Assembly: GCA_019752335.1 (NCBI GenBank)
Contig: JAIEMJ010000030.1
Location: 86,597 to 150,596, forward strand
DNA length: 64,000 nt
Origin: Bryobacteraceae bacterium
GTDB lineage: Bacteria; Acidobacteriota; Terriglobia; Bryobacterales; Bryobacteraceae
Reading direction: 5' to 3'
This document shows, one piece after another, positions 7,307-21,252 of the stretch. The position numbers were made by a program, and so were the translations under genes. The notes under the pieces were generated by a model, which saw nothing but the letters and a program-made list of their open reading frames with translations, had not been told where the DNA came from and ran no database searches. Within the stretch, counting starts at the first letter, position 1. The number at the start of each line of letters is the position of its first letter.

Positions 7307-7534
7307 AGATACTTCTATTCTAAGATGCGCCGCGCGTGGCGCGAAAGTCTTTCCTTTTCAAACGGTTGCGCGCGGCTCTCGAAAACGTGCCGCACGCAGA
7401 ACGGCCGTTCACGCACAATTGGAAATTTATAAGCTTCTTATTTTCAACGCTTTAGTAAAAGCGGTGGGGTCAGAATTTTCAGCCGAATTGCTATTCTCAA
7501 ATCGGGCGAAGGGAAAACCGCCCAACGGAGCCGG

Positions 7535-8827
7535 ATGAAAGAGGAAACACGATGGCGAGATATTGGTTACAGCCCGCTGCCTTCCCAGGCGCGTTTTCAC
7601 CGGTTGAAGACTCGCTTCAAGGGTTTTTCCGGTCCGGTGGGATCGGGCAAGAGCGCGGCGCTATGCCAAGAGGCGATTCGGTTGGCTTACCGGAATCCGG
7701 GGCGTCTTGGACTGTTGGGCGCCCCAACTTATCCGATGCTGAAAGACGCTACGCAGCACAGTCTCCTGGAGATACTGGAACGGGCGCGAATTCCGTTTGA
7801 CTTGAATAAGTCGAATAACTACGTGATCCTCACGGAGTGTGAGGCGAAGATATTGTTTCGTTCGATGGAAGAGTACGAACGGCTGCGGGGAACGAATCTG
7901 GCATGGTTCGGCCTTGACGAATTGACTTACACGGCAGAGGCGGCCTGGTTGCGGTTAGAGGCCCGGCTGCGCGATCCGAAAGCGAAGTCGCTTTGTGGGT
8001 TTGCGGTGTGGACACCGAACGGGCAGGACTGGGTTTATCAGCGTTTCGTCGAGAAACGAATTCGTGGTTACGGAACCGTTTTGGCCAAGCCGTTTGAGAA
8101 TCGGTACTTACTTGAGGCGGTGCCTGACTATTATGAGCGGCTGAAGCACAGCTACGATACCCGCTTTTATGAGCAAGAAGCATTAGGGGCTTATCACGAA
8201 TCCGGCCGCGACTTAGTTTATCGGGCGTTTCAACGGTCAACGAATGTGCGCGCCGTCCCGGTGGACCCGAAGCAGCCGCTGCTGTGGACATTGGATTTCA
8301 ATGTCGATCCGATGTGCTCGTTGGTGGCGCAGCGTTCTGGCGAGTGTGTCCAAGTGATTGATGAGATTGTGATCCCGCGAGCTTCGACGGAAGAGGCTTG
8401 CGAAGAGTTTGTGCGGCGCTTTCCGCAGCACGCAGCCGGCGTAAGAATTACGGGGGACGCTTCGGGCAACCACCGGCAGACGTCAGGGACGACAGACTAT
8501 GACATGATCCGGCGTTTCTTTTGTCGGGTGGGTATGAAGGCGGTGAGTTATCACGTGCCGGCAGCCAACCCCCGCGTGGCGGATCGGGTTCGGCTCGTGA
8601 ACGCGAAATTGCAGAACGCGGCCGGCGCCGTGGAGCTACTGATCCACGAGAGATGCAAAGAGTTGTTGAAGGATTTCGCGGAGGTCCGGTATCGAGAAGG
8701 CACCGCGCTGATCGATAAGGACTCCGACCCGCGAAGAACACATTTGTCGGATGCGCTCGGGTATCTGATCTGGCAGGAGTTCGGCCCGCGCCCCGTTGTG
8801 GGCGAAAAGAACTTTCCGCTTTTCTGA
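7535..8827 (+). CDS. Phage terminase large subunit
   Basis: Walker A motif GPVGSGKS near the N-terminus, a Walker B-like LDELTY segment and a C-terminal nuclease-like region. First gene of the structural block. Confidence 0.8.
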
Positions 8828-8884
8828 GGCTGCCGCCTGGGGAAGCAGGCGATTTTTCAGAATTACGGCAAGGAGCTACAAATC

Positions 8885-10267
8885 GTGCTTGACATTACTC
8901 GCGAACACCCAGAATACGTGATGCGGCGTGTGACGTTTCAGCAGTACCGCGATCTCTACGCGGGTGGGGCACAGTTCGCGCTGAACTCTTATGCGTATTT
9001 GACGCCGAGGCAGAGGGAGCCACAGCAGGTTTACGCGGAGCGCGCCAGCCACGCCTATTACGAGAACTACATTGGCTCGATTATTGACTGGTATGCGGCC
9101 ACGTTATTTCGCCGCGAGCCAGTGATTACCCTGGACGGTGACAATGTCAGCGGGAAGCGCTTTTTCGGGCAACTCAACGACGACTGCGACCGCAAAGGAA
9201 CCGCGCTGACTGACTTTTTCCGAAGCCTCTTCACGGACACCCTGGTGCAAGGCGCGTCGCATATCCTAGTGGATTTTCCGCGGCCAGGAACGACGCCGCT
9301 GACCCGCGCCGAAGAGGAGGCACAGGGCATATCGCGGGCCTTCCTGGTGCCGTATACCGCGGAGGAATTGATCAACTGGAGCCGGGACCCGGACGGCAAC
9401 TACGAGTGGGTGGTATTGCGCACGTCGCAACTGCGGCAAGAGCGCATCGATGTGGGCGATTGGACGCCGGAGACCCGCTGGCTGTATCTGGATCGCACGC
9501 AGTACCGGCTATGGAGGCAAAGCTCGAAGCCGTCCTCAGGAAATTTGATTGAAATCGAGGACCAGGGTACGCACGCTCTCGCCAAGCTTCACCGGGTGCC
9601 CTTGTTCGACCTACGGGCGACGCAGGGGCTCTGGCTAATGAATAAAGCGGCTTCCTTGCAGCTTGAGCACTTCAATAAGTCGAACGCACTCTCCTGGGCG
9701 TTGACCAATGGCCTGTTCGCGACGCCGGTGGTGTACAGCGACAAAGAACTTACGCAAAATATCGGAGACAGCTACTTTCTCCAGCTAGGCGCGGGAGATC
9801 GCTTTGGCTGGACGGAGCCGCAAGGCAACGTGCATCACATTGCATCGCAGAATTTGGAGCGTCTACAAACGGAGATCTACCGGGTTTCCTACTTGCTGGC
9901 CCAAGCCGGCGGACCTTCGTCGGCCGCCCAATCCGGACTGAGCAAGCTGCGCGACTACGCCATCACGATTGAGATCCTCCGGGGCTACGGCGACATGGTG
10001 AAGGATTGTATGAAGCGGGTGCTGCGTACGATCGAACAGACTCGCGAGGATGGGCTCGCGATTGATGTCTCCGGACTGGACGAGTTCGATATCGCCGACT
10101 TCAGCAACGATCTCGACGAAGCAGAGCGTCTCTTGAAGCTCGGGATCGAGTCGCCCACGATGAAGCGTCAAGTCTTCAAGAAGCTTGCCTTGAAGTATCT
10201 TTGCGATGCGCGCCAGGAGCTAAAGGACCAGATCGCGGCGGAGATCGACGAGTCGCATCGCGGCTGA
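8885..10267 (+). CDS. Putative phage portal protein
   Basis: 460-aa protein immediately after the terminase and before the scaffold and capsid genes. Size and position fit a portal. No definitive motif was recognised. Confidence 0.5.
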   Translation: MLDITREHPEYVMRRVTFQQYRDLYAGGAQFALNSYAYLTPRQREPQQVYAERASHAYYENYIGSIIDWYAATLFRREPVITLDGDNVSGKRFFGQLNDDCDRKGTALTDFFRSLFTDTLVQGASHILVDFPRPGTTPLTRAEEEAQGISRAFLVPYTAEELINWSRDPDGNYEWVVLRTSQLRQERIDVGDWTPETRWLYLDRTQYRLWRQSSKPSSGNLIEIEDQGTHALAKLHRVPLFDLRATQGLWLMNKAASLQLEHFNKSNALSWALTNGLFATPVVYSDKELTQNIGDSYFLQLGAGDRFGWTEPQGNVHHIASQNLERLQTEIYRVSYLLAQAGGPSSAAQSGLSKLRDYAITIEILRGYGDMVKDCMKRVLRTIEQTREDGLAIDVSGLDEFDIADFSNDLDEAERLLKLGIESPTMKRQVFKKLALKYLCDARQELKDQIAAEIDESHRG

Positions 10268-10353
10268 TTGCCAAGCAACTTTTTGTCGACGGCGGGAGTG
10301 TCAAGGGTAATCCCCTGAAGCTGCCGCCGTTTTCTTTTTGAAAGGGGAACTCA

Positions 10354-10929
10354 ATGGAAGAAGAGCAAAGTAAGAGTCAAGCGGATGTGCGCGATGTAAT
10401 CCGCCAGGCGATTAACGACTTTGTCGCCACGGAACAGGCCAAGGCTGAACCGGCCTACAAAGCCGAACTCGCCGAGGAGCGCAAGCGGCGGGAGCAACTG
10501 GAACGCCGAATGAACGAGATGGCCGAGGAGAATCGGAAGAGCCGAGCCATCGCGGAGGAAGCGGAGCGTACGTCGACAATCCGGAGTGAGCTACAGCGCC
10601 TGGGGGTAGTAAAGCTCGATCTGGCTTATCGGGCCGTAAAGGACGACATCCAACGAACGGAGGACGGCCGTTTAGTCGGCCGCCAGGATGGCGAAGACCT
10701 GACCATCCAAAGCTACCTTAAGCAATTCGTGGAAGAGAATCCCGAGTTGTTGCCCGCGCGGATCACGGCCGGCATCGGCACCAGTCCGAATCGCGGTGGC
10801 GCCTCTGGCGCTTCTGCGCCGGCGAATCTCGACTTAGACCGGATTCGCCCGGGCATGAATCCAGAGGAGCTGGAGCGGGTGCGTCAAGAAATTGCGCGGG
10901 TGGCCAACCAGTCACTCCGCAACGGTTAA
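10354..10929 (+). CDS. Putative phage scaffolding protein
   Basis: 191-aa highly charged predicted coiled-coil protein (AEERKRREQLERRMNEMAEENRK) between the portal and capsid genes, preceded by an AAGGGG RBS. Confidence 0.4.
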   Translation: MEEEQSKSQADVRDVIRQAINDFVATEQAKAEPAYKAELAEERKRREQLERRMNEMAEENRKSRAIAEEAERTSTIRSELQRLGVVKLDLAYRAVKDDIQRTEDGRLVGRQDGEDLTIQSYLKQFVEENPELLPARITAGIGTSPNRGGASGASAPANLDLDRIRPGMNPEELERVRQEIARVANQSLRNG

Positions 10930-11014
10930 GTGAGCTATTCCAACCTTGAGCACGGGAACGATACGGTCCTGGGCTTGATTATCAACTAACTAAGTCAACA
11001 AAGGAGACTTTCGA

Positions 11015-11926
11015 ATGCCAACGATTACGTCCGCAAACCTCGCGCAAGCGATCGTGAAACTGGTTGCAGCCGATGCGCTGCCGGCCTTGGTGGGTAACCT
11101 GGTTCTAGGAAACCTCGTGAATCGGGACTTCGAGCCCATTCTTTCACAAGCCGGCAACACGGTGAACGTGCCGATTCCCCCGGTGATGGTGGCCAACAAC
11201 ATTGCCGAAGCCGGCGAAATCCAGACGCAGAATCCGAGTCTGGGCAATGCCCAGATTGTTCTGGATACGCACGCGGAAGCGAGCTTCCAGATTCCGGACG
11301 TCACCAAGGTGGTGGCTGTTCCGGAGTTGCTGAAGCTGTACATGCAGCCGGCGATTACCGCGCTGGCCGAGCGGGTAGAAACTGACCTGATGTCTCTGGC
11401 GCAGCAGTTCACCGCGAACTCCCCGCTGGGCACGGGCGGCTCGCCGCTAACGGAGGCGTTGGTGGACTCGGCAGAAACTGCTTTGTTCAGCGCCAAGGTT
11501 CCTTCGGCGCAGTCGAAGTATCTGGTGGTGGATCCAGCGGCCTATTCGCAACTTCGCCAGATTCCGCGATTCAGCGAATACCGGACGGCGGGTGAAGCCG
11601 GATTGCGCGCCCTAGTGGAAGGCAACGTAGGCCGCATCAAGGACTTCTACGTCTTCCGGTCGCAGTTCGTGGCGAAGTCCGGCAATGCTCCCCAGGTGAG
11701 CCACAACCTGGCTTTCGCTAAGGACGCGATCGGATTGGCCATCCGCCGCTTGCCGCAGCCGATCCCCGGCACCGGCGCCATCGCGGAGTATGCGGAAATG
11801 GGCGGCTTTGGCGTGCGCGTGTTGATGAGCTACCAGCCGAATACGCTGGCGCAGCAATTCACGGTCGATATTTTGTACGGGACGGGCATCCTGCGCAATA
11901 ACTTCGGCGTGCAGGTTCGCACCTAG
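11015..11926 (+). CDS. Putative phage major capsid protein
   Basis: 303-aa protein after the scaffold gene in an SPP1/lambda-like head module (no protease). The call rests on position and size. Confidence 0.5.
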   Translation: MPTITSANLAQAIVKLVAADALPALVGNLVLGNLVNRDFEPILSQAGNTVNVPIPPVMVANNIAEAGEIQTQNPSLGNAQIVLDTHAEASFQIPDVTKVVAVPELLKLYMQPAITALAERVETDLMSLAQQFTANSPLGTGGSPLTEALVDSAETALFSAKVPSAQSKYLVVDPAAYSQLRQIPRFSEYRTAGEAGLRALVEGNVGRIKDFYVFRSQFVAKSGNAPQVSHNLAFAKDAIGLAIRRLPQPIPGTGAIAEYAEMGGFGVRVLMSYQPNTLAQQFTVDILYGTGILRNNFGVQVRT

Positions 11927-12014
11927 TTACCAGCTCACTAACCTCGCGCTCGGGCTACCGCTCCGGCGGTAGCCCCTTCTTCAAGACTTCGAATTCCGAA
12001 TAGGTGAAACAAAG

Positions 12015-12365
12015 ATGAATCTTCGAGACTTTTACAACAAGGTGCGCGCAGTGCTCAACACGATTGACGTGCCTTTTGTCGTTCTGGTGAGTAAGACAAC
12101 TACGGATGGCGGCAAAGAAGGAGTGATGACGCTAGTTAAGCGCGAAACCGCCGCGCGTTTGATCGTGGAAGACCGGGCGCGGCTGGCAAGCGCTGAAGAG
12201 TCCGGTGTCTATTTTGCGGATGAAAGCGCGAAGCGGCAGGCCTCGGAAGCGGAACGCCGGTTTCACGCCACTAAGCTAGCCTTCCGGTCCGGCGAGGTGG
12301 TCGAGCAGTTTTGCGAACTCCAGGAAACCCTAGAGCCCGTGAAGAACTCCAAGCGCGATAGCTAG
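12015..12365 (+). CDS. Phage hypothetical protein (head completion/connector candidate)
   Basis: Small ORF between the capsid and tail genes, co-directional and tightly spaced. Confidence 0.4.
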   Translation: MNLRDFYNKVRAVLNTIDVPFVVLVSKTTTDGGKEGVMTLVKRETAARLIVEDRARLASAEESGVYFADESAKRQASEAERRFHATKLAFRSGEVVEQFCELQETLEPVKNSKRDS

Positions 12366-12392
12366 CTCTGTCGCTGGAAACAGAAAGGGAAT

Positions 12393-13154
12393 GTGATGGC
12401 ACTCTTCAACGATGGGCCGATATCTTCGCTAGAAGATTTGCGGGTGTACGAAACGTCATTGCTCGATACCGCGAGTATCGAAGGCGTCAGCCTGGCGAAC
12501 AAGCTGGATCTCGCCGGACAGGAGCTCGGAGGTGAAATCCTTCGTTTCCTGATTCAACAATTGGAGCCAGCGGAGTCAATCGGCCCCGGCAAGCTGGACC
12601 AAGTAGTGGCTACCGACCCGTTGCGGCGTTGGCACGCGCTGAGAACCCTAGCGATCTTCTTCCGCGATGTGCATCACAATCAGCTCAATGACCGCTACCG
12701 GGCCAAATGGAACGCCTACGAAGCGGAAGCAAAGTCCGCCGCGCGGCTGCTTTGGGAGGTAGGAGTCGGCACGGTGAGGAATCCTCTCCGCCGGCCAATG
12801 CCTCCTGTGCTGGAGATCTTGTCGACGGACGACGAGTATCCCCAGTTGCTCTTCAAAACTACCTGGGTCACCGGCAATGGCGCGGAGAGCGCCGCGAGTG
12901 GCGCAACCCTATTCGCCGGCGGTATCGGCCTGAAGCCGCAGTTGACGGTGAACAATCCTCCCCAGCGTGCGACCGGATGGAACATCTATGCCGGTGTTAC
13001 GGAGGCTACGCTCTCCCGGCAGACACCAAGCCCCCTACCGTTAAACGAAGTGTGGGTAATGCTGGGCAACCAGCCGGTTTCTGGAAGCTCCGTGCCGGAT
13101 GGACAAGCCCCAGATCAGTATGTGCGCCTGCAGCGGCTCTTGTTTCGAGGATAA
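12393..13154 (+). CDS. Phage hypothetical protein (head-tail connector candidate)
   Basis: 253-aa ORF in the head-tail joining position. Confidence 0.4.
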   Translation: MMALFNDGPISSLEDLRVYETSLLDTASIEGVSLANKLDLAGQELGGEILRFLIQQLEPAESIGPGKLDQVVATDPLRRWHALRTLAIFFRDVHHNQLNDRYRAKWNAYEAEAKSAARLLWEVGVGTVRNPLRRPMPPVLEILSTDDEYPQLLFKTTWVTGNGAESAASGATLFAGGIGLKPQLTVNNPPQRATGWNIYAGVTEATLSRQTPSPLPLNEVWVMLGNQPVSGSSVPDGQAPDQYVRLQRLLFRG

Positions 13155-13159
13155 TCACC

Positions 13160-13657
13160 ATGGCGAAAACGGCACGAAACGCACTTCGTAAGCTAGCCAA
13201 TCAAATGGCGGCCGAGACAGGATTGCTCTACACCGTGGGCGCGATAGCGCAGCGGGAGAAAGTTGAACTGGCGCCGATTTCCGGCGCGCACATTGTTTCG
13301 CAACATGTGGCGGCTGAGCTAATCGAAAAGAGCGCGGGCGCCCAGTATCCTCGCGTCCACCTCTACTGCGAGAAGATCACCAACCACTTGAAAGAGAAAT
13401 TCCGGACGTTTTCCGGGACCGTGCGGTTAGTAGCGGAGGTCCGCGCGTCCTTTGATCGCGCCGAGGCTCTGGAGCCGTCTCTGATGCTCTACGTGGATGC
13501 CGTCACTGACGTACTCGATAGTCATCGGGGCGACTGGGGAGACGGCTTCTTCTTTACCGGCGGCTATGAAGTTAGTTTTTCACCGATGAAACACGGCGGG
13601 AAGAACTTCATTCAGTCCGCCAAAATCGTTTTCGAAGTGAATGCCAGCCAGGGTTGA
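13160..13657 (+). CDS. Phage hypothetical protein (tail completion candidate)
   Basis: An ATG at 13160 (MAKTARNALRKL...) lies 5 nt after the stop of the previous gene. The track ORF 12707..13657 is a 5'-extended artefact overlapping the neighbour. Confidence 0.4.
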   Translation: MAKTARNALRKLANQMAAETGLLYTVGAIAQREKVELAPISGAHIVSQHVAAELIEKSAGAQYPRVHLYCEKITNHLKEKFRTFSGTVRLVAEVRASFDRAEALEPSLMLYVDAVTDVLDSHRGDWGDGFFFTGGYEVSFSPMKHGGKNFIQSAKIVFEVNASQG

Positions 13658-13692
13658 GCCCGACGGCTAGATGAAGGAATTAGGAGTTTTCG

Positions 13693-14862
13693 ATGGCCTG
13701 TTACATCTCGTCAAATAACAATCGTTTTTACGTAGCGCTGGAATCGTCGTATGGCGAAGTGGCGGCCGTCGCGAACGCCCGCCGTTTTGCGGGCATCCAA
13801 TTGCGCGCTCGCCAGCAAGCGGTGCAGCTTGACCGCCGGGACAAGACTGGAAGCCGGACGTTCCTCGGCCTGCCGGCGGGCGTGAAGCGGCAAACCTCGT
13901 ATCAGCTTCGTACCTACCTTGCCGGCTGGAGCGACCAAGGCATTGAGCCATCCCAGGGCCCCTTGATTCGGGCGTCCTTAGGTGCTCCGGTTCGCCTCGC
14001 GGGAACTCACACCTTGGCCAGCGCTTCGGGAACCACGCTCAACTTCACGGCGGCTCATGGCTTGGCCGTGGGCGAAGCCGTCACTTTCGGTTCAGAAATC
14101 CGCTTCGTCGCCGCGATTCCGAATGCCCAGAGCGTGGTGTTGAATGTGCCCTTCACGCTGGCAGCGACCGCCGGTTCCGTACTGGGACCTACGGCCTCCT
14201 ATGCGCCGGCCAATAGCCTGGCCAGCTTCAATCTATTCGACTATTGGTCACCGGAGACAGCCGTGCATCGCATCCTGGCCGGAACCGCGGTGGACCGCAT
14301 GGCGGTGAAAATCAATGCCGATTTCCATGAATTCGAATTTCGCGGCCCGGCGCGCGATCTGATCGATAGCGTTAGCTTTGCGCCTGGCGATGGCGCGCTG
14401 GCAAGCTTTCCTGACGAACCCAACATCGCCGACTTCGAGTCGAACATTGTTCCGGGCCATTTGGGACAGGCTTGGTTGGGTGCAAATCCAGAACGCTTCT
14501 ACACGATCACGGAAGCCGAGTTTACCCTCGACAATAACATCGACGTGCGAGACCGCGAGTTTGGCTCGACGCTGCCACGTTGCCTTTCGGCTGGGTTGCG
14601 TGATGTCCGCCTGAACTTTACCTTGCATGAGCAAGACGACGCGGCTACGAAGAGCCTCTATCAAGCAGCGCGGCAGCGTTCGCCGATCAGTGTGATGCTG
14701 CAACTCGGTCAACAGGCCGAGCAGATGTTTGGCATCTACCTGCGCAGCATAGTACCGGAAGTGCCGGAGTTTGACGATGGCGAGACGCGGCTGCAATGGC
14801 GATTCACTGGCTCACGAGCACAGGGATCCGCGAACGACGAAGTGTTCCTTGCTTTCGCCTAA
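13693..14862 (+). CDS. Putative major tail protein
   Basis: 389-aa ORF immediately upstream of the G/G-T chaperone pair and the tape-measure gene, which is the conserved siphovirus position of the tail tube protein. Confidence 0.35.
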   Translation: MACYISSNNNRFYVALESSYGEVAAVANARRFAGIQLRARQQAVQLDRRDKTGSRTFLGLPAGVKRQTSYQLRTYLAGWSDQGIEPSQGPLIRASLGAPVRLAGTHTLASASGTTLNFTAAHGLAVGEAVTFGSEIRFVAAIPNAQSVVLNVPFTLAATAGSVLGPTASYAPANSLASFNLFDYWSPETAVHRILAGTAVDRMAVKINADFHEFEFRGPARDLIDSVSFAPGDGALASFPDEPNIADFESNIVPGHLGQAWLGANPERFYTITEAEFTLDNNIDVRDREFGSTLPRCLSAGLRDVRLNFTLHEQDDAATKSLYQAARQRSPISVMLQLGQQAEQMFGIYLRSIVPEVPEFDDGETRLQWRFTGSRAQGSANDEVFLAFA

Positions 14863-14874
14863 GGATGGCCAAAC

Positions 14875-15240
14875 ATGAACTACGCACCTACGATCGAAGT
14901 AGATTCAACCTGGGCACCAGGGGTTAGCTATCGCATCGCGCGAATGTCCTTCGCGCGGCGTCTCGAGCTTACGCGGCAGGTCCGCGCCCTCTTGGCCAGG
15001 ATGGAGTTTCACGTTGCCGGCGAAAGCCCACTGGACAAGGTAGACGCAGCCACGTTATCCATGGAAATCGACCGGCTTTACTGGGAATGGGGCCTAGTGG
15101 GCATTGAAGGTCTGCTGATCGGAGGCGAGGCCGCGGGCCGGGAGAACCTGCTGGAAAGCGGGCCTGAAGCCTTGGTTCACGAAATCCTCGCCCGCATCAA
15201 GTCCGAATGTGGACTGAGTGAAGAAGAACGAAAAAACTAA
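14875..15240 (+). CDS. Tail assembly chaperone, lambda gpG-like
   Basis: 121-aa acidic ORF between the major tail and tape-measure genes. It ends with the slippery heptamer A_AAA_AAC immediately before its TAA stop. Confidence 0.55.
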   Translation: MNYAPTIEVDSTWAPGVSYRIARMSFARRLELTRQVRALLARMEFHVAGESPLDKVDAATLSMEIDRLYWEWGLVGIEGLLIGGEAAGRENLLESGPEALVHEILARIKSECGLSEEERKN

Positions 15241-15575
15241 TTGTCGCATTTCACTTTCAGCGTTCGGATCCAGCCGCTTGGAAGTGCGACACGTGCCGTC
15301 AGCAGCGGCTGGATCGAACACGCCGTTGCGCATTTCTGCCTGTGGAAGCCATGGGGCCGACGCGAACCGTGTGGGCGCGCGGACGGGCGGCGACCTCGCA
15401 ATGCCCGAAATCCGTAATTTCTGCTGACTCGCTTTCGTTACTGGAGACATTCTCCGCGTGGAGACTTCTCGGGCCGGGCGCGGTTTGGCAGTTACCCGCA
15501 AAAACTGTCGACGCATTATTTGTGTTGCAGAACGAATGGAGGTCATTAGAATCCGATGCCGAATCCACTTATTGA
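14875..15575 (+). CDS. Predicted G-T-like fusion chaperone made by programmed -1 ribosomal frameshift
   Basis: The -1 frame opens after a TGA at 15219-15221 and stays open for about 112 codons to a stop at 15573-15575, overlapping the start of the tape-measure-like gene. The slip site A_AAA_AAC sits at 15231-15237. Confidence 0.5.
15231..15237 (+). other. -1 PRF slippery heptanucleotide A_AAA_AAC
   Basis: X_XXY_YYZ pattern in the zero frame of the gpG-like gene, two codons before its stop. Same class as the dnaX and lambda G-T sites. Confidence 0.5.
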
Positions 15576-16161
15576 TCAATTGCTACGGGCTACTCTGCCG
15601 AGCCAAGTGACGAAGGATGATGGTCTACTTGGGCCTGCCGCGGAGGCGCTCCGTACACTTACCTCCCAAATTGAAAGCCTGCGTGGACTCTACCAGTCTC
15701 AGACCGTGCAGACGGCTGAGAACACGACGGCGGTCCTGCAGAATACGCGCTCCCGCGCTGCGGATGCCGGATCGACGGCGAGTACGATCGTGAAGACCGC
15801 CGGCAGCGCGCTTGGTGGCGGTCTGACTCTATTTCCGTTAGTCTCCGGTCTGGCCAAGCTTTTCGGGTTTGGGGGAAAGAAGGAAGAGGTGCCGGCGCTG
15901 TCGCCATTTGCTCTTCCCTCTGCCGTCGACTTGGATGGTGGCGTCAGCCAGAGTGGCTCGTCCGCGGTTGGGAGCGTCTCTTACGGACAGAATGGCCTGC
16001 CGCGCCGGACACCAACCGCGGCGAGCGGCCCCAATATCAGCGTGAATGTGCAAGCTATGGACGCCCGATCCTTTCTCGACCACAGCGACGACATCGCTCG
16101 TGCCGTGCGGGAAGCGATGTTGAACTCGCATCCGCTGAACGACGTGATCTCGGAGGTATAG
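15556..16161 (+). CDS. Putative short tail tape-measure protein
   Basis: Helical N-terminus plus a Gly-rich hydrophobic segment (GSALGGGLTLFPLVSGLAKLFGFGG) typical of tape-measure proteins. Lies directly after the G/G-T pair. Only 201 aa. Confidence 0.45.
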   Translation: MPNPLIDQLLRATLPSQVTKDDGLLGPAAEALRTLTSQIESLRGLYQSQTVQTAENTTAVLQNTRSRAADAGSTASTIVKTAGSALGGGLTLFPLVSGLAKLFGFGGKKEEVPALSPFALPSAVDLDGGVSQSGSSAVGSVSYGQNGLPRRTPTAASGPNISVNVQAMDARSFLDHSDDIARAVREAMLNSHPLNDVISEV

Positions 16162-16163
16162 AC

Positions 16164-16520
16164 ATGCCAGACTTTCCTCAACTCCGAACCAACGTGGTAA
16201 TGCAATACCCAGCGCAACGCGTCTTGACTTACTCAACGCAGGTGCTGCGGTTCATGGATGGGTCAGAACAGCGATTTCGGACCTGGGCGGGCGCGTTGCG
16301 GGAATGGTCAATCCGGCTGGATCTGCTTAGTGAGGATGAACTGAGTACTTTTCGCGACTTCTTTCGAGATCGGGCCGGACGCGCGCAGAGTTTTCGCTTT
16401 ATTGACCCGTGGGACGGCGCCGAGTATCCGAAGTGCACGCTGGACGAGGACGACTTCGAAGCAGTACTGAGAGGCGAGGGCCGCGGAGATCTAAGTCTAA
16501 CGGTGAGGGAGTCACGATAA
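16164..16520 (+). CDS. Phage minor tail protein, lambda gpM-like
   Basis: 118 aa. Shares the pattern TYSxxL...LSEDEL..F....G...SFxFxDPW with lambda gpM (TYSVTLS...LESFLEEHGGWKSFLWTPP). Confidence 0.5.
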   Translation: MPDFPQLRTNVVMQYPAQRVLTYSTQVLRFMDGSEQRFRTWAGALREWSIRLDLLSEDELSTFRDFFRDRAGRAQSFRFIDPWDGAEYPKCTLDEDDFEAVLRGEGRGDLSLTVRESR

Positions 16521-16523
16521 GTC

Positions 16524-17336
16524 ATGCCGGCAACTAAAGTATTTCCGCAACTTGCTTCTGGTGCGATTACACAGTATCCACTGCGCAGCAAGGAATACCT
16601 GCGCACGTTAGTGAATCAGACCGCGGATGGCCGGCGGATCCGTTATGCGGATGTTGGCGCGTCGATGATGGCGTGGGAGATGACGCAATCGGCGCTGTCG
16701 GACGAGGAATGGACCGCGCTTGAGACACTGTTTCGTGCTTGTGAAGGGCGAAGGCACTCGTTTCTGTTTCTCGACCCATGGTCGAACTTAGTCGCCTCGA
16801 GCGAGGACTTCGGCAACGCCGCGTGGCAAGCTGCACCTGGACTCGGTCTGAGTTCGGGGGTGCAAGATCCGGAAGGGCGTCCGCGAGCGACGCAGGTAAC
16901 TAACTCGGCGGCTGGGTTGCAGTCGCTCAGCCAGAGCCTCAGTGTTCCAGCCAATTTTCAATACTCGTTCAGCGTGTACGCGCGGGCGGCAAGCACCGCG
17001 GACTTACGTCTCATTGTGTCGGCCGACGGAGCTTTCGCGGAACGTCTTTTCGAGTTGTCGGCGAATTGGCAGCGGTACACCCTTTTCAGCGCTCTGTCCT
17101 CCACGGCAGAATCGCTGGAGGTGGCGATGCAACTGCCAGCCGGCGTAACGGTCGAGTTGTTCGGAACGCAGATGGAAGCCCAGCCGGCCCCGTCGCCCTA
17201 TCAACGCACGGGCCTGCGAACCGGGCGGTATCCGGAAACGCGCTTCGCTGGCGATACGTTGACACAAGTCTCTACCAGCCCTGGCGAACACTCGACCGTA
17301 GTTCGAATTCTGAGCCGAGCAAACGGCTCTACTTAG
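16524..17336 (+). CDS. Phage minor tail protein (gpM-like N-domain plus extension; gpL-position)
   Basis: The N-terminal 100 aa are paralogous to the preceding gene (FPQL..QYP...LSxEE...F....GR.HSFLFLDPW). A C-terminal extension of about 170 aa follows. Confidence 0.45.
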   Translation: MPATKVFPQLASGAITQYPLRSKEYLRTLVNQTADGRRIRYADVGASMMAWEMTQSALSDEEWTALETLFRACEGRRHSFLFLDPWSNLVASSEDFGNAAWQAAPGLGLSSGVQDPEGRPRATQVTNSAAGLQSLSQSLSVPANFQYSFSVYARAASTADLRLIVSADGAFAERLFELSANWQRYTLFSALSSTAESLEVAMQLPAGVTVELFGTQMEAQPAPSPYQRTGLRTGRYPETRFAGDTLTQVSTSPGEHSTVVRILSRANGST

Positions 17337-17355
17337 TTCAAGAGAAGGAACGTTT

Positions 17356-20300
17356 ATGCCCACGGCACTCGAATTAAAAGACCAGCAGACTCCAGAGACG
17401 CCGATACTCTTGTTTGATTGCCGCTTGGCCAACGGAAGCACCGAACGGTGGAGCACACATCAACTAACATTCGAAGGCAATGCCTACGCCGCGCGCGTGC
17501 TAGAACACAGTTCCTTTGATATGAAGGCCGAAGACGACGGCATTTCTCGCGTCGGCCTGTTGATGGCCAACGCGGATAGCTATTTTTCACAGCTTGAGCG
17601 AAGCGCGGGGCTGAAAGGCGCAAACCTGGATGTAAGGCTAGTGTTCTGGAACCTCTCAAGTAGTCTCCCTGCTTCTACCCCAGTAATGCTCTTCCGTGGA
17701 CTGGGAAATGCGCCCGAAGAGACAACCGAGTCGACGATGCGACTGAGCTTTGTCAATCGGTTGAGTCCGCAACGAATCCTATTACCGAGCGTACGCATCC
17801 AGAAGCGCTGTCCTTGGCGATTTCCATCCACGCCGTCTGAACGTGGGGAGGCACCGTCCGGTCTCGACGAAGGAAAGTACTCGCCGTTCTTTCGTTGCGG
17901 ATACTCGCCGGATCAGCCAGGAGGCGCCGGTAACCTGGATGCAAACGGCGCTCCATTTACAACTTGCGACTTTACCCGGACGGCTTGCGAACAACGCGGG
18001 ATGTTCTCCAAAGATGCCAGCCACCGGCAAACGCGGCGCTTTGGCGGTATCGAGTTTGTGCCGGCGAGTATTCTGGTGCGCGGCGCGGGAGAGCAGAACT
18101 CCCGCGTCTCGAATCTCTTGGACAACGAGGCGCGCTACAACGACTTCGTTCCGATGATTCACGGTACGGCCTGGTATCAGCCGCCCATGGTGTTCGCGCG
18201 TAACGACGGCAATCTGACGCGCATGGAAATCCTGCTCGGTATGGGCGAGATGCAGGGCGTCATCAAGGTCGTCGTGAACGATATTGAGATTCCTCTGGGC
18301 GTCGACGGACAGAACATGACGGCTACGGGCTGGTACAACGTCGTATCGCTGGGGAATCGTACGGGCGGCTTTAATCTGAACTTTACGGACACCAGCGGAG
18401 GCCCTCTCGGTGATCCCTATGGCAGCATGGCGTTTGCGTCGGTGGTAGTGCCGAATCGCATTGCGGATGGAAAGCGTCTGCCAACCGTGAAGGTGCTGGT
18501 GAATGGGATCAAGGTGTCGCGCTTTGACGAAGAATCCAACTACTTAGACGACGCCTTTACGGCGAACCCCGCATGGATCATGCTAGACCTGCTGCGTCGT
18601 TCTGGGTGGGCGATGCGCGAGCTGGACATTAGCAGTTTTGCGAAAGTGGCGGCTCATTGTGACGCTCCGGTGGCGACCAGTGACTTACACGGTACTAGCG
18701 TAACGGTTCCGCGTTACGAAACGAATCTCGTATTGCGGCGCCGGCGCTCTGCCGCCGAGATCTTACGTGGTTTGCGCAACGCCGCGGCCCTCTACCTGAC
18801 GTTTGGACCAGAAGGAAAGCTGCAACTGAAGCTCGAGAGTAAGATCGCGGTCAGCCAGCCAGCGAAGCCGGCTGGCTCGAATTCCAGCGAACCGTTGTTC
18901 GGTGGTTGGCCTGCCTACGAGTTTTCCGAGAGTTCGATACTACGGCGCGAAAACGGTAGCGCGGCCTTTCGTCTCTCCAGCCGGGCCAACTCGGACTCCC
19001 CAAATCGCTTCACACTGGAGTTTCAGGACGCATTCAACGAATTTCAACAAGATAGCCTGTCGATTGTCGACGTCGATGACGCGGAACGCACGGGCCAGGA
19101 TATGGCTGCGTCGATCAATGCGCTAGGCATTCCCCAATTCGATCAGGCGGCGCGCATTATCCGGCTGAATCTGGATAAGTCACTGCGTGGAAATCTCTAT
19201 GCCGAGTTCGAGACGAGCATCAAGGCGCTGGGTCTGCGGCCGGGCGACCTGATCACCATCACCTATGCCAAAGAAGGCTTTGACCGGCAGCTCTTCCGAG
19301 TGCAGCGGATCCAACCACAGGCGAACTTTACTAAGGCCGTGATCACCGCCCAGCTCCACGATGAGAACTGGTATCTGCAACCCGGCTTTCCGGGCAGCGC
19401 CTCTCGATTCAGCGGCACGGCTGGACTTGGTGTCCCTCGTCCGTTGGTGGGCACAGAACTGGACTCCGATGGATTGCCCCGCTTCGGCGTGACGGAGATC
19501 GTTACGGGTGACGAAGTCGGGTTGCGAGTCAGCTTCCGGCCTCCGGCCAAGCCACAAGACTCTGGAGCGTCTCGCCCGTTACTCGGACTCACTCCGGATA
19601 TTGAGAGCACCGGTGGCACCTTAGCGGGCAGACAGAGTTACTACTATGCGGTGAGCGCGCTGGACGCGGCTGGCGCGGAGAGCCGACTGTCGTTTATTGT
19701 ACGCGCGACCATTGCCGCGTTGACGAACACGAATCGCGTCCGCTTGACGAACCTTAGCTTTTCTCCGGGTAGTTCAGGTTTTGTGGTTTATCGTGGCACT
19801 ACGCCGCAGCAACTGCTGCGCATTGCCAAAGTCACTTCTTTAGCTATTGACTTTGTCGATACCGGATTGACGCCGGAATTGGTTCCACCGCCCGATGAGA
19901 ACTATCAGGAAGCGCGCTTTTACTGGCGGCTCGAACTCTATCCGGAGATTGTGGCCAATCAGTTTACCCCTACTACGATTGGAAACTCGACCATTGCCCT
20001 CACGGCAGATTCGTTTACTGGTTCCGTAGTAAGAATCACGCGAGGACGGGGAGCGGGTCAAGAACGCACGATTCAGGCTAACAGCACCACGGCCTTGGCC
20101 GTTTCGCCGGCCTGGAGCGTGGTACCGGACGCCACGAGTTACTTTGTCGTCGCCGAAGCCGGTTGGAAACTGGGCGCTATCAGCCCGACTAGCCCGGCCG
20201 AGTTTCCGATTCCCAACCGGGGCGGCACGACACTGCAGATCGCCGGCCGGTCGGCAAACGCGAACGGACAGGAGAGTGCTCCTGAGTTGTCTCCGCTAAC

Positions 20301-21252
20301 TCGTTGGCAAATTGGCGGTGGATCTAGTGGCGGCGGTCTGGACGCAGGCTTGCCTCCCGAGCCTTCTTTTGCTTTCCGCCGTGTGCAAGATGGATCGCTA
20401 GAGTTGGCCGCCATAGGGTTTCCAACTTTCACCAACACGCGCACCATCTCTGGTGGAACGCTCACGCTCTATGCCTGGAACGAGCTAAGGTCTCCATCGA
20501 CTCAGTTACTCGCAACCGGAATCGATGCCGTGACCACCTCGGTTACGGTAAGTAACCCAAGGCCAACGGCTGCCGTCGTTGGTGACTTAGTCCAGCTCGG
20601 CGCGGAAATTCTTCGTATTACAGCGATCTCACCCGACGGCCTCACTTACTCGGTTGACCGCGCCGTCTACGACTCCACCGCGGAGACTTATGGCCCCGGA
20701 ACGCCGCTTTACTACCTCGACAAAAATGTCTTCGTGATTCCGTTCGTCAGGGACTTCTTCGGCAGCCCGGCCAGCGGCCGGTATAGCCAGCAGGTTTACT
20801 GGCCGAACGTACGCGCCGCCGCCGCTGATCTTACCGTCACGAACATTTACGGCCCCTCGCCGACGGCATCCATGAACCTGACCAGTACCACGGCGCTTGG
20901 CCTGCGCACGCTATCGGGAGGCCAACTGACACTACAGTACGACGGCCCGCTCGCCATCGGTTCGAGCGTTACGCCGATCTTGCTGGTAGAGCGGCAACAA
21001 GCCATCGGTGAGATTTTCGCGGTGGTGGCTGATGCGCCCACGGGCGGCCCGGTGGTCGTTCGCGTCATGCGCAATGGCCTGGCTTACGCGGAGGTAACCA
21101 TCAATGCCGGCATGACGCAGTCGAACACGGCCAGCGGGTTCGGGTTGCCTCCTCTCGAAGCCGACGAGCGCCTGACGATTGACATCGTCAATGTGCCCTC
21201 TTCCGCGGCCGGAACTCCGGGCCGCGACTTGACGGTGATCCTGACGCGCTAA
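17356..21252 (+). CDS. Phage host-specificity / central tail fibre protein, lambda gpJ-like
   Basis: 1298 aa. Contains NPAWIMLDLLRRSGWAMRELDISSFAKVAAHCDAPV followed by PRYETNLVLRRRRSAAEILRGL, which matches the conserved gpJ/GTA-g15 core (NMAWCLWDMLTHPRYGMG...CDQSVPDG...PRITCNAYL). Confidence 0.75.
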   Translation: MPTALELKDQQTPETPILLFDCRLANGSTERWSTHQLTFEGNAYAARVLEHSSFDMKAEDDGISRVGLLMANADSYFSQLERSAGLKGANLDVRLVFWNLSSSLPASTPVMLFRGLGNAPEETTESTMRLSFVNRLSPQRILLPSVRIQKRCPWRFPSTPSERGEAPSGLDEGKYSPFFRCGYSPDQPGGAGNLDANGAPFTTCDFTRTACEQRGMFSKDASHRQTRRFGGIEFVPASILVRGAGEQNSRVSNLLDNEARYNDFVPMIHGTAWYQPPMVFARNDGNLTRMEILLGMGEMQGVIKVVVNDIEIPLGVDGQNMTATGWYNVVSLGNRTGGFNLNFTDTSGGPLGDPYGSMAFASVVVPNRIADGKRLPTVKVLVNGIKVSRFDEESNYLDDAFTANPAWIMLDLLRRSGWAMRELDISSFAKVAAHCDAPVATSDLHGTSVTVPRYETNLVLRRRRSAAEILRGLRNAAALYLTFGPEGKLQLKLESKIAVSQPAKPAGSNSSEPLFGGWPAYEFSESSILRRENGSAAFRLSSRANSDSPNRFTLEFQDAFNEFQQDSLSIVDVDDAERTGQDMAASINALGIPQFDQAARIIRLNLDKSLRGNLYAEFETSIKALGLRPGDLITITYAKEGFDRQLFRVQRIQPQANFTKAVITAQLHDENWYLQPGFPGSASRFSGTAGLGVPRPLVGTELDSDGLPRFGVTEIVTGDEVGLRVSFRPPAKPQDSGASRPLLGLTPDIESTGGTLAGRQSYYYAVSALDAAGAESRLSFIVRATIAALTNTNRVRLTNLSFSPGSSGFVVYRGTTPQQLLRIAKVTSLAIDFVDTGLTPELVPPPDENYQEARFYWRLELYPEIVANQFTPTTIGNSTIALTADSFTGSVVRITRGRGAGQERTIQANSTTALAVSPAWSVVPDATSYFVVAEAGWKLGAISPTSPAEFPIPNRGGTTLQIAGRSANANGQESAPELSPLTRWQIGGGSSGGGLDAGLPPEPSFAFRRVQDGSLELAAIGFPTFTNTRTISGGTLTLYAWNELRSPSTQLLATGIDAVTTSVTVSNPRPTAAVVGDLVQLGAEILRITAISPDGLTYSVDRAVYDSTAETYGPGTPLYYLDKNVFVIPFVRDFFGSPASGRYSQQVYWPNVRAAAADLTVTNIYGPSPTASMNLTSTTALGLRTLSGGQLTLQYDGPLAIGSSVTPILLVERQQAIGEIFAVVADAPTGGPVVVRVMRNGLAYAEVTINAGMTQSNTASGFGLPPLEADERLTIDIVNVPSSAAGTPGRDLTVILTR

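What the first reader, a model, noticed from the sequence alone, without database searches (positions are those of the whole stretch)
15219..15575. Programmed -1 frameshift site (A_AAA_AAC) joining the gpG-like chaperone to a 112-codon -1 frame extension
The 121-aa ORF ends ...cga aaa aac taa. The heptamer A AAA AAC at 15231-15237 is a canonical slippery site. The -1 frame opens after a TGA at 15219-15221 and then runs without stops to 15575, overlapping the start of the tape-measure-like gene. This is the G/G-T architecture conserved in lambda, most Siphoviridae and GTAs. Its presence argues the tail module is functional rather than decayed.
Basis: seen in the sequence. Interest (0 to 1): 0.7.

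Follow-up and report, generated by a model that had tools for sequence, protein, structure and literature searches.

The report
Conserved tail-chaperone -1 frameshift site
A small phage-tail assembly gene in an acidobacterial genome ends in a slippery A_AAA_AAC site, and a fraction of ribosomes probably slip back one base there to add a conserved 112-residue, four-cysteine domain; this is the well-known phage G/GT trick, in a gene family that databases have not annotated.

Summary

- **Sequence.** The 121-aa ORF (14875-15240) ends CGA AAA AAC TAA, with A_AAA_AAC (15231-15237) in the right register. The -1 frame is open from 15222 to 15572.
- **Chance.** In this window alone the open frame is weak evidence. 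Open runs of at least 112 codons are common here, and codon usage in that frame is poor.
- **Comparative evidence.** 107 related loci from Acidobacteriota MAGs and IMG/VR were examined, with G 41-73% identical. All keep the heptamer in register, and one has AAAAAAT. All loci that extend far enough keep a 106-130-codon -1 frame.
- **The -1 peptide.** It is conserved from the first codon after the slip (LIVAFHF). It has four invariant cysteines, varies most at third codon positions, and has no conserved start codon. Its predicted structure is confident (pLDDT 94).
- **RNA structure.** An 11-bp hairpin starts 5 nt after the heptamer. It is 98% paired in 77 sequences, shows compensatory changes and suppressed synonymous variation, and may extend to a pseudoknot.
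- **Family membership.** G and T match no Pfam, PHROG, NCBIfam, PDB or phage-genome entry, so "gpG-like" rests on position and mechanism.
- **Context.** The host cluster is head-tail genes only and looks GTA-like.

Verdict: a new member of a known kind.

The parts
13693..14862 (+). 389-aa tail protein gene immediately upstream of G; the candidate major tail or tube protein and the presumed partner of the T domain
   Evidence: It matches PHROG phrog_290, category tail, at E 2.7e-8. It is conserved at 44-82% identity and 388-453 aa in the related loci. It has no Pfam, NCBIfam or PDB sequence match. Its role as the tube protein is inferred from position only.
14875..15240 (+). G: 121-aa upstream (0-frame) ORF, the putative tail assembly chaperone
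   Evidence: The translation is given. There are 137 homologues in the protein database, all named hypothetical, and the window copy is P0011 from a Bryobacteraceae MAG. The AlphaFold model has pLDDT 89.8. Fold resemblance to named tail or tape-measure chaperones is weak, at Foldseek E 0.3-1.2.
15231..15237 (+). Slippery heptamer A_AAA_AAC in X_XXY_YYZ register (P-site AAA, A-site AAC)
   Evidence: Read directly. It is present in register in 107/107 related loci, as AAAAAAC in 106 and AAAAAAT in L009. Alignment A1 columns 16-21 are invariant.
15238..15242 (+). 0-frame stop TAA (15238-15240) directly after the heptamer, within the 5-nt spacer (TAATT) before the hairpin
   Evidence: Read. The stop follows the heptamer directly in 99 of 107 loci and one codon later in 8. 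The spacer is A1 columns 23-27.
15243..15290 (+). Conserved hairpin S1. The 5' arm is 15243-15253 and the 3' arm is 15279-15290. In the window the best register is 10 continuous bp, 15243-15252 with 15281-15290.
   Evidence: 98.2% of cells are paired over 77 distinct sequences. Three pairs show compensatory changes. Slid controls pair at 32-52%. RNAalifold predicts the same stem independently. Val-3 is GTC in 73/73 sequences and Cys-17 is TGC in 77/77, although family codon usage is mixed. The isolated hairpin has -13.1 kcal/mol.
15267..15315 (+). Possible second stem S2, which would make an H-type pseudoknot. The 5' arm is 15267-15278, inside the S1 loop. The 3' arm is 15304-15315.
   Evidence: In the window it is 12 perfect bp at -22.2 kcal/mol. 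Across the family 78% of cells pair in the commonest register, with GC/CG covariation at pair 65-92. Against a synonymous-codon null the window has z = -2.56 but the family mean is only z = -0.86. Ala-13 (GCC, 73/75) and Leu-25 (CTG, 69/76) are synonymously constrained. Support is partial.
15237..15575 (+). T: the -1 frame extension, 112 codons plus stop TGA 15573-15575. The four invariant Cys codons are at 15285-15287, 15294-15296, 15327-15329 and 15402-15404.
   Evidence: The translation is given. In the 77-sequence alignment conservation starts at LIVAFHF, and the motif is W.CD.CR..GLE..RRC...VWAR...CP.S. Pairwise differences by codon position are 30/28/42%. The AlphaFold model has pLDDT 94.4. 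There is no Pfam, PHROG, NCBIfam, PDB or BFVD match.
15556..16161 (+). 201-aa tape-measure-like gene; its start overlaps the end of T by 20 nt
   Evidence: The C-terminal motif matches phrog_3779, tail length tape measure protein. The window copy scores E 0.002, and 21 of 32 family members match with a best E of 1.6e-4. It has a Gly-rich hydrophobic centre. The T stop overlaps the start of this gene in most loci.

Best explanation
This is a programmed -1 ribosomal frameshift of the phage tail-assembly-chaperone (lambda G/GT) type.

Most ribosomes translating G read CGA AAA AAC, meet the TAA stop at 15238 and release the 121-aa G protein.

A minority have tRNA-Lys on AAA and tRNA-Asn on AAC, slip back one base onto AAA AAA, and resume at CTA (15237). 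They make a 233-aa G-T fusion, ...EERKN-LIVAFHF..., which carries a 112-residue domain with four cysteines that probably bind a metal.

A conserved 10-11-bp hairpin begins 5 nt after the heptamer. It may extend to an H-type pseudoknot through a second stem. It would sit at the mRNA entrance of the ribosome when the heptamer occupies the P and A sites, and it probably acts as the stimulator.

By analogy with lambda, the G portion would coat the short tape-measure protein. The rare T domain would recruit the 389-aa tail protein so that the tube polymerises. Neither chaperone would end up in the particle.

Shown here:
- the sequence anatomy;
- conservation of the heptamer and the -1 frame;
- coding constraint on T and the lack of an independent start;
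- conservation of the hairpin.

Inferred, not shown:
- that slippage occurs, and its efficiency;
- the stimulatory role of the RNA structure;
- metal binding by T;
- the binding partners of G and T.
For: - **Anatomy.** Read directly in the sequence.
- **Heptamer and -1 frame.** 107/107 related loci (G 41-73% identical) keep A_AAA_AAC or AAT in register 0-1 codons before the G stop. They keep a -1 frame of 106-130 codons, whereas the +1 frame varies from 9 to 167 codons.
- **Other frames.** None of the other five frames over the T region is conserved open.
- **T protein conservation.** Conservation starts at the first codon after the slip and includes four invariant Cys. Third-codon positions carry 42% of pairwise differences.
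- **No independent start.** 28 of 83 unique loci have no ATG, GTG or TTG upstream in the -1 ORF. The window has TGA 15219 only four codons upstream of the heptamer. The first downstream start usually lies 33-44 codons in, after the CxxC.
- **Annotation.** Gene callers almost never call T: 10 full-length calls among 5.8 billion proteins, and mostly truncated fragments among 382 representatives. They leave a gap of about 310 nt between G and the next gene.
- **T folds.** The model has pLDDT 94.4.
- **Hairpin.** 98.2% of cells are paired, with compensatory GC to AU, GC to CG and UA to CG changes, and RNAalifold predicts it independently. Synonymous variation is suppressed in the arm codons: Hobs/Hexp is 0.66 for T codons 1-32 and 0.92 for the rest.
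- **Spacer.** 5 nt falls within the 5-9-nt range described for 3' stimulators (PMC5009743).
- **Precedent.** The same review describes the lambda G/GT model and the use of A_AAA_AAC for g-t in the haloarchaeal virus HCTV-2 (PMC5009743).
- **Gene order.** Tail gene, G, T, tape-measure-like gene, distal tail protein, J-like protein.
Against: - There is no experimental evidence of a fusion product.
- The identities of the flanking tail-tube and tape-measure genes are weakly supported.
- Codon usage and GC3 in the window's T frame look non-coding.
- Minimum free energy of the region is no better than synonymous-codon nulls (mean z = -0.88). Much of the hairpin is fixed by conserved amino acids, so RNA-level selection rests on a few synonymous sites and a few compensatory events.
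- S2, and hence the pseudoknot, is not universal in the family.
- A_AAA_AAC is reported as much less shift-prone than A_AAA_AAG in E. coli (PMC5009743).
Confidence: 0.85

Rival explanations
1. Transcriptional slippage. RNA polymerase drops one A, or adds two, in the A6 run. A minority of mRNAs then carry G and T in one frame, and the ribosome does not slip.
For: The site is a homopolymeric A6 run that is invariant in all loci. The protein outcome would be almost the same. Some database proteins read ...EERKK-LLVAFHF, as if the run were A7, for example P0223.
Against: - Slippage-prone runs are usually longer than six; this rests on my own general knowledge.
- The commonest slippage product, one added A, would enter the +1 frame, which is not conserved.
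- The heptamer register and its terminal C or T are invariant, and a hairpin is conserved exactly 5 nt downstream. That fits a ribosomal mechanism.
- The A7-like database proteins come from sequences with several other frame errors.
Confidence: 0.07
2. T is a separate gene translated by its own initiation, or by termination-reinitiation coupling at the G stop. It is not fused to G.
For: A few loci have an ATG or GTG about 8 codons upstream of the heptamer in the -1 frame, and gene callers used it. The window has GTG 15342 and ATG 15351 inside T.
Against: - 28 of 83 loci have no start codon upstream. In the window, TGA 15219 closes the frame after the only upstream ATG.
- Internal starts would remove LIVAFHF and three of the four invariant Cys, and their positions are not conserved.
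- Conservation begins exactly at the slip codon.
- CTA, ATT and GTC, the first codons after the stop, are not standard start codons.
Confidence: 0.04
3. Nothing is functional here. Either the open -1 frame is a chance by-product of GC-rich sequence, or a once-continuous gene was broken by a frameshift mutation and is now a pseudogene.
For: Long open frames are common in this window. The heptamer is not enriched. Codon usage of the T frame is poor.
Against: The split arrangement, the heptamer and the frame length are conserved in 107 loci spanning 41-73% G identity. T shows protein-level constraint and gives a confident fold.
Confidence: 0.02

Closest known systems
Bacteriophage lambda gpG / gpGT tail assembly chaperones, and the conserved G/GT frameshift of long-tailed dsDNA phages (Levin 1993; Xu, Hendrix and Duda 2004, 2013, 2014, as summarised in PMC5009743)
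   Same: - Two overlapping ORFs lie upstream of the tape-measure gene.
- A -1 slip occurs on a heptamer at the very end of the first ORF.
- The fusion carries all of G plus a C-terminal domain of comparable size.
- The second ORF has no start of its own.
- The arrangement is conserved although the sequences diverge.
   Different: - No detectable sequence or clear fold homology to named chaperones.
- The heptamer is A_AAA_AAC rather than lambda's G_GGA_AAG; the lambda heptamer is from my own knowledge.
- A conserved hairpin, possibly a pseudoknot, lies 5 nt downstream.
- The T domain has four invariant cysteines and no match among predicted viral structures.
- The tape measure is very short, about 200 aa.
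g-t frameshift of haloarchaeal siphovirus HCTV-2
   Same: It uses the same A_AAA_AAC heptamer for tail-chaperone g-t expression (PMC5009743).
   Different: It has an archaeal host and unrelated proteins. Nothing was compared here beyond the heptamer.
E. coli dnaX (gamma/tau) -1 frameshift cassette
   Same: It has an A-rich Lys heptamer followed after a short spacer by a stem-loop stimulator. In some bacteria the 0-frame stop lies directly after the shift site (PMC5009743).
   Different: - dnaX uses A_AAA_AAG and an upstream Shine-Dalgarno stimulator and reaches about 50% efficiency.
- The window has GAAG, not GAGG or GGAG, at the corresponding upstream position. A G-rich tetramer is common but not universal in the family.
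- The products are unrelated.
RcGTA-type gene transfer agent head-tail cluster (Rhodobacter capsulatus)
   Same: - Cluster of about 14 kb with head and tail genes only, flanked by housekeeping genes.
- Very short tape measure.
- DUF2460 / Rcc01695-family distal tail protein, a GTA_spike_fiber domain and a Phage-tail_3 / J-like giant protein.
   Different: - Different phylum (Acidobacteriota).
- P22-like coat rather than an HK97-type RcGTA capsid family hit.
- The NCBIfam Rcc01695 hit is far below its cut-off, 36 bits against 137.
- No evidence of DNA packaging or transfer.
- Whether RcGTA's own chaperone genes use the same slip site was not checked here.

Membership tests
Phage tail assembly chaperone G/GT programmed frameshift (lambda-type) | [quoted passage not shown] | tested here: met
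   A_AAA_AAC at 15231-15237 is in register. It is conserved in 107/107 loci.
Phage tail assembly chaperone G/GT programmed frameshift (lambda-type) | Overlapping downstream ORF in the -1 frame, of comparable size, with no start codon or ribosome-binding site of its own | tested here: met
   The -1 frame is open for 112 codons after the slip. TGA 15219 lies four codons upstream of the heptamer. 28/83 loci have no upstream start and the internal starts are not conserved.
Phage tail assembly chaperone G/GT programmed frameshift (lambda-type) | The arrangement (site plus open frame) is conserved among homologous clusters, and the extension is under protein-coding constraint | tested here: met
   together with the T model at pLDDT 94.4.
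Phage tail assembly chaperone G/GT programmed frameshift (lambda-type) | The gene pair lies immediately upstream of the tape-measure gene | tested here: met
   The next gene, 15556-16161, matches the C-terminus of the tape-measure PHROG phrog_3779 in 21/32 family members. The scores are weak, with a best E of 1.6e-4. The genes after it are the distal tail protein and a J-like protein.
Phage tail assembly chaperone G/GT programmed frameshift (lambda-type) | The gene pair lies immediately downstream of the major tail (tube) protein gene | tested here: inconclusive
   The 389-aa upstream gene matches only a PHROG named minor tail protein, at E 2.7e-8. It has no Pfam, NCBIfam or PDB match, even with a profile.
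Phage tail assembly chaperone G/GT programmed frameshift (lambda-type) | G is homologous to, or shares the fold of, known tail assembly chaperones | tested here: inconclusive
Phage tail assembly chaperone G/GT programmed frameshift (lambda-type) | A G-T fusion protein is made at a low, fixed ratio to G; G binds the tape measure, T binds the tube protein, and neither is in the virion | not testable with these tools
   This needs proteomics, reporter assays and binding experiments.
-1 frameshift cassette with a 3' RNA stimulator (dnaX / IS-element type) | A stable stem-loop or pseudoknot starts 5-9 nt after the heptamer | tested here: met
   S1 is 10-11 bp and starts after a 5-nt spacer. It is 98.2% paired, shows compensatory changes and is recovered by RNAalifold. 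S2, the pseudoknot stem, is only partly supported. Its function as a stimulator was not tested.
-1 frameshift cassette with a 3' RNA stimulator (dnaX / IS-element type) | An upstream Shine-Dalgarno-like stimulator | tested here: not met
   The window has GTGAAGAAGAACG upstream, with no GGAG or GAGG. GAGG or GGGG, ending 7 nt upstream of the heptamer, is common in relatives but coincides with Glu and Gly codons.
Gene transfer agent (RcGTA-like domesticated head-tail cluster) | The cluster holds head and tail genes only, with no integrase, replication, repressor or lysis genes, and is embedded among host genes | tested here: met
   The window cluster spans about 6984-21252, between ribBA and a BFN nuclease / uridine kinase. 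Six further genomes show the same content.
Gene transfer agent (RcGTA-like domesticated head-tail cluster) | Vertical inheritance within a host clade | tested here: inconclusive
   The element is present in 45 species-level Acidobacteriota genomes. Flanks are shared within subgroups: window and L114, L112 and L116, L111 and L115. They differ between subgroups. No phylogenetic congruence test was run.
Gene transfer agent (RcGTA-like domesticated head-tail cluster) | Particles package random host DNA and transfer it | not testable with these tools
   This needs particle purification and sequencing.

The most novel reading that the evidence does not exclude
The frameshift belongs to a previously undescribed GTA-like or otherwise domesticated head-tail element. 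The element would be inherited within Bryobacterales (Acidobacteriota). Its chaperone pair would be a new family in which the frameshift-only T domain is a metal-binding (Cys4) module of a fold not seen in known phage proteins. Its expression would be set by a conserved hairpin or pseudoknot. If so, the site would give a direct handle, as a reporter or through proteomics, on whether these abundant soil bacteria make transducing particles.
Probability: 0.3. Interest if true: 0.7.

Novelty: new member of a known kind. Interest (0 to 1): 0.35.

Why it matters
The mechanism itself is textbook. The value lies in three points.

1. **A missing gene product.** A conserved 112-residue protein domain is absent from essentially all annotations of these genomes. 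It was called about 10 times in full among 5.8 billion database proteins. It can now be annotated as a frameshift product in more than 100 loci.

2. **Evidence of function.** Strict conservation of the site, the frame and an RNA hairpin across 41-73% protein divergence is strong evidence that the tail module is under selection and functional. This bears on whether the head-tail-only cluster in Bryobacteraceae and Solibacteraceae genomes is an active GTA-like particle producer. These bacteria are major soil organisms with almost no known phages.

3. **An unusual T domain.** A four-cysteine T domain with no structural relatives among predicted viral proteins suggests a different way of engaging the tail tube protein.

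Tried and rejected
- **Codon usage and GC3 of the T frame.** Both look non-coding. I set them aside because comparative and structural evidence shows that T is coding. Its Cys/Trp/Arg-rich composition and the RNA-structure constraints probably distort the usage.
- **Minimum free energy against synonymous-codon nulls.** Not significant for the S1 region (mean z = -0.88). The dinucleotide-shuffle z for the window is -2.0. MFE is not a discriminating statistic here, so I used specific pair counts and synonymous-site analysis instead.
- **S2 in the window's own register across the family.** Only 50% paired. The family mostly uses a register shifted by one.
- **Family searches for G, T and the G-T fusion.** Pfam, PHROG and NCBIfam give nothing even at E <= 1.
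- **Sequence and profile searches against PDB.** Nothing meaningful for G, T, the 389-aa protein or the 201-aa protein.
- **tblastn of the fusion against 50,697 phage genomes.** No match.
- **Rfam on 15100-15700.** No match.
- **Upstream Shine-Dalgarno stimulator.** Not present in the window.
- **Antisense ORF 15094-15579 (161 aa) and the +1 frame.** Neither is conserved open.
- **Long database proteins that contain T after a G-like N-terminus.** I judged these error-ridden chimeras, not natural in-frame fusions.
- **Literature searches.** I found nothing on zinc or cysteine T domains or on GTAs in Acidobacteria in the held library.
Full report
**1. The observation**

The sequence is exactly as described.
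- An ATG-initiated ORF runs from 14875 to 15240 and encodes 121 aa ending ...ECGLSEEERKN.
- The last two sense codons, AAA (15232-15234) and AAC (15235-15237), together with the preceding A (15231), form A_AAA_AAC in the X_XXY_YYZ register. TAA follows at 15238-15240.
- In the -1 frame a TGA lies at 15219-15221. The frame is then open to a TGA at 15573-15575.
- After a slip the ribosome would read CTA (15237) and a further 111 codons, LIVAFHFQRSDPAAWKCDTCRQQRLD...ESTY.
- The next gene starts with ATG at 15556, a 20-nt overlap.

Taken alone, this is only suggestive.
- AAAAAAC occurs 5 times in the window against 6.5 expected.
- 18-24% of positions in this 61% G+C window have at least 112 open codons ahead.
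- The codon-usage score of the -1 frame is -0.10, against 0.29 +/- 0.10 for in-frame windows of neighbouring genes. GC by codon position is flat.

**2. Comparative test**

The G protein retrieved two sets of related loci.
- 45 loci came from species-representative genomes. Nearly all are Bryobacteraceae or Solibacteraceae MAGs of the Acidobacteriota.
- 64 loci came from IMG/VR contigs.
- G identity to the window ranges from 41 to 73%.

In two loci G runs off the contig. The other 107 all end in AAAAAAC, or AAAAAAT in L009, in the same register.
- In 99 loci the stop follows the heptamer directly. In 8 it comes one codon later.
- Every locus with enough sequence has a -1 frame of 106-130 codons.
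- The +1 frame varies from 9 to 167 codons.
- None of the other five frames over the T region is conserved open.

The -1 translations (77 distinct) align almost without gaps from the first codon.
- LIVAFHF is nearly invariant.
- The motif W.CD.CR..GLE..RRC, VWAR and CP.S contains four invariant cysteines.
- Pairwise nucleotide differences fall 30/28/42% on codon positions 1/2/3 of this frame.

There is no conserved way to start T independently.
- 28 of 83 unique loci have no ATG, GTG or TTG upstream within the -1 ORF.
- In the window the only upstream ATG is closed off by TGA 15219.
- The first downstream start is usually 33-44 codons in, after the CxxC.

Annotation databases reflect this.
- G has 137 or more database homologues, all named hypothetical. 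The window's own copy is P0011, from a Bryobacteraceae MAG contig of 361,561 bp.
- T is called full-length only about 10 times among 5.8 billion proteins, each time from a fortuitous start about 8 codons upstream of the heptamer.
- A T profile finds 382 representatives. Most are 60-100-aa fragments from internal starts.
- The few long proteins that contain T after a G-like N-terminus carry several frame errors. I regard them as assembly artefacts.
- In six other genomes the gene caller leaves a gap of about 310 nt, or a 64-67-aa fragment, between G and the next gene.

**3. The proteins**

G (65-sequence alignment) models at pLDDT 89.8. It has a small beta element followed by a long helical hairpin and short helices.

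T (62-sequence alignment) models at pLDDT 94.4, so it is a real folded domain.

Neither protein matches any described family.
- No Pfam, PHROG or NCBIfam family is matched by G or T, nor (Pfam, PHROG) by the fusion.
- No PDB sequence or profile match was found.
- tblastn of the fusion against 50,697 phage genomes finds nothing.
- Foldseek of G against BFVD finds an unnamed Caudovirales homologue at E 5.5e-9. Named tail-assembly or tape-measure chaperones appear only at E 0.3-1.2.
- T has no BFVD match; the best E is 1.7.

So "gpG-like" is justified by position, size and mechanism, not by demonstrated homology. Four invariant cysteines in a cytoplasmic domain suggest metal binding. That is inference; I could not inspect the model coordinates.

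**4. Gene neighbourhood**

The order on the + strand is as follows.
- A small ORF, then the large terminase at 7535-8827.
- Portal at 8885-10267.
- A 191-aa protein.
- P22-like coat at 11015-11926.
- Three small proteins.
- A 389-aa protein at 13693-14862, matching phrog_290 (category tail) at E 2.7e-8.
- G and T.
- A 201-aa protein at 15556-16161.
- A DUF2460 / Rcc01695-family distal tail protein at 16164-16520.
- A 270-aa protein with a GTA_spike_fiber domain.
- A 1298-aa Phage-tail_3 / J-like protein at 17356-21252.

The 201-aa protein has a Gly-rich hydrophobic centre. Its C-terminal motif matches the tape-measure PHROG phrog_3779 in 21 of 32 family members, though weakly, with a best E of 1.6e-4. 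This is the canonical siphovirus and GTA tail-module order, with the chaperone pair just upstream of the tape measure.

**5. RNA structure**

Nucleotide conservation just after the heptamer exceeds what the amino acids require.

A stem (S1) pairs alignment columns 28-38 with 67-78. In the window this is 15243-15253 with 15279-15290.
- 98.2% of 847 sequence-by-pair cells are paired over 77 distinct sequences.
- Three pairs show compensatory changes: GC to AU, GC to CG, UA to CG, and CG to GU or AU.
- Slid controls pair at 32-52%.
- RNAalifold predicts exactly this stem on its own.

Synonymous sites in the arms are frozen.
- Val-3 is GTC in 73/73 sequences, while another conserved Val uses GTG, GTT, GTC and GTA in 49, 11, 10 and 4.
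- Cys-17 is TGC in 77/77, while Cys-56 is TGC in 42 and TGT in 35.
- Ala-4 is GCC in 61/77, while other conserved Ala codons are mostly GCG.
- Relative synonymous entropy is 0.66 for T codons 1-32 and 0.92 for the rest.

The stem starts 5 nt after the heptamer. That is within the 5-9-nt spacing described for 3' stimulators of -1 frameshifting (PMC5009743).

In the window S1 is 10 continuous bp (-13.1 kcal/mol). A second perfect 12-bp stem, S2 (15267-15278 with 15304-15315, -22.2 kcal/mol), has its 5' arm in the S1 loop. The two can coexist only as an H-type pseudoknot with loops of 14, 2 and 13 nt.

Support for S2 across the family is partial.
- 78% of cells pair in the commonest register, with GC/CG covariation at one pair.
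- Ala-13 (GCC) and Leu-25 (CTG) are synonymously constrained.
- Against synonymous-codon nulls the mean z is only -0.86, and 23% of sequences fall below -2. The window scores -2.56.

Other checks gave nothing.
- Overall MFE is not better than the synonymous null.
- No Rfam family matches.
- An upstream Shine-Dalgarno-like element is not present in the window.

**6. Mechanism**

The best-supported reading is a programmed -1 ribosomal frameshift of the lambda G/GT type. It yields abundant G (121 aa) and a rare G-T fusion (233 aa, junction ...EERKN-LIVAF...).

The hairpin or pseudoknot is the probable stimulator. The 0-frame stop directly after the site ensures that G and G-T share the whole of G.

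The functional model comes from the lambda literature as reviewed in PMC5009743. In it, G coats the tape measure, T recruits the tube protein, and the two products have a fixed molar ratio of about 30:1. That model is carried over here by inference. The same review records A_AAA_AAC as the g-t shift site of the haloarchaeal virus HCTV-2. It also records A_AAA_AAC as less shift-prone than A_AAA_AAG in E. coli, which fits a low-level shift that might need a stimulator.

Rivals:
- **Transcriptional slippage on the A6 run.** It is disfavoured by the short run, the unconserved +1 frame, the fixed register and the precisely spaced hairpin.
- **Independent initiation of T.** It is disfavoured by the lack of conserved starts and by conservation from codon 1.
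- **Chance or pseudogene.** It is excluded by the conservation.

**7. Novelty**

This is a new member of a well-known kind. It is unannotated and belongs to no described chaperone family. It has an unusual cysteine-rich T domain and an unusually well-supported RNA stimulator.

The more interesting point lies outside the finding. The cluster (about 6984-21252) contains only head and tail genes.
- It is flanked directly by ribBA and by a BFN nuclease and uridine kinase.
- It has no integrase, lysis, repressor or replication genes.
- It keeps the same content in six other genomes.
- Flanks are shared within subgroups and differ between them.

That pattern resembles a domesticated, GTA-like element in Bryobacterales. 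I found no description of such an element in the held literature, but I did not test vertical inheritance or particle production.

Noticed in passing
window 6984-21252; L111-L116: The phage-like cluster has head and tail genes only (about 14 kb). It is flanked directly by housekeeping genes: ribBA upstream, BFN nuclease and uridine kinase downstream. No integrase, lysis, repressor or replication genes were seen. Six other Bryobacteraceae or Solibacteraceae genomes have the same gene order. Flanks are shared within subgroups (window and L114; L112 and L116; L111 and L115) and differ between them. It looks like a domesticated GTA-like element in Acidobacteriota. Cluster GC is 0.584, against 0.62-0.64 in the flanks.
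   Followed up: partly
window 15237-15572 (-1 frame): The T domain has four invariant cysteines (C17, C20, C31, C56 of T; C-x2-C-x10-C-x24-C-P). Its model is confident (pLDDT 94.4). It has no match in Pfam, PHROG, NCBIfam, PDB sequences or BFVD structures. It may be a new metal-binding fold used as a tail-chaperone T domain.
   Followed up: partly
window 16164-16520 and 16524-17336: Two consecutive genes both match DUF2460, the RcGTA distal-tail family. The second also carries an NCBIfam GTA_spike_fiber domain (E 2.9e-16). This links the tail tip to RcGTA-type particles.
   Followed up: no
L111, L112, L113, L115, L116 (about 16.4-19.3 kb in locus coordinates) against window 21253 onward: Most relatives carry an extra gene of about 900 aa (TIM-barrel_NCTSP) after the J-like gene. 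The window and its close relative L114 lack it and go straight to the BFN nuclease gene.
   Followed up: no
window 6984-7538 (+) and 6167-7306 (-): The 184-aa ORF upstream of the terminase overlaps the 5' end of ribBA on the opposite strand by about 320 nt. In relatives the gene before the terminase is only 83-108 aa. The real small gene here is probably shorter than the listed ORF.
   Followed up: no
P0171, P0185, P0188, P0210, P0223, P0231: Some database proteins join a garbled G-like N-terminus to T in one frame. P0223, for example, reads ...EERKK-LLVAFHF, as if the A-run were A7. They carry several frame errors and look like homopolymer or assembly artefacts. A real A7 polymorphism was not excluded.
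   Followed up: partly
L009 6339-6460; L023, L032, L042-L044, L096, L108, L109: Variants of the site exist. L009 has A_AAA_AAT. Eight loci have one extra sense codon (TCA, TCC or TCT) between the heptamer and the G stop, so an immediately adjacent stop is common but not obligatory.
   Followed up: yes
window 15094-15579 (- strand): A 161-aa antisense ORF spans the whole frameshift region. The corresponding antisense frame is open in only 30 of 81 related loci, so it is most likely a by-product of G+C-rich coding sequence.
   Followed up: yes
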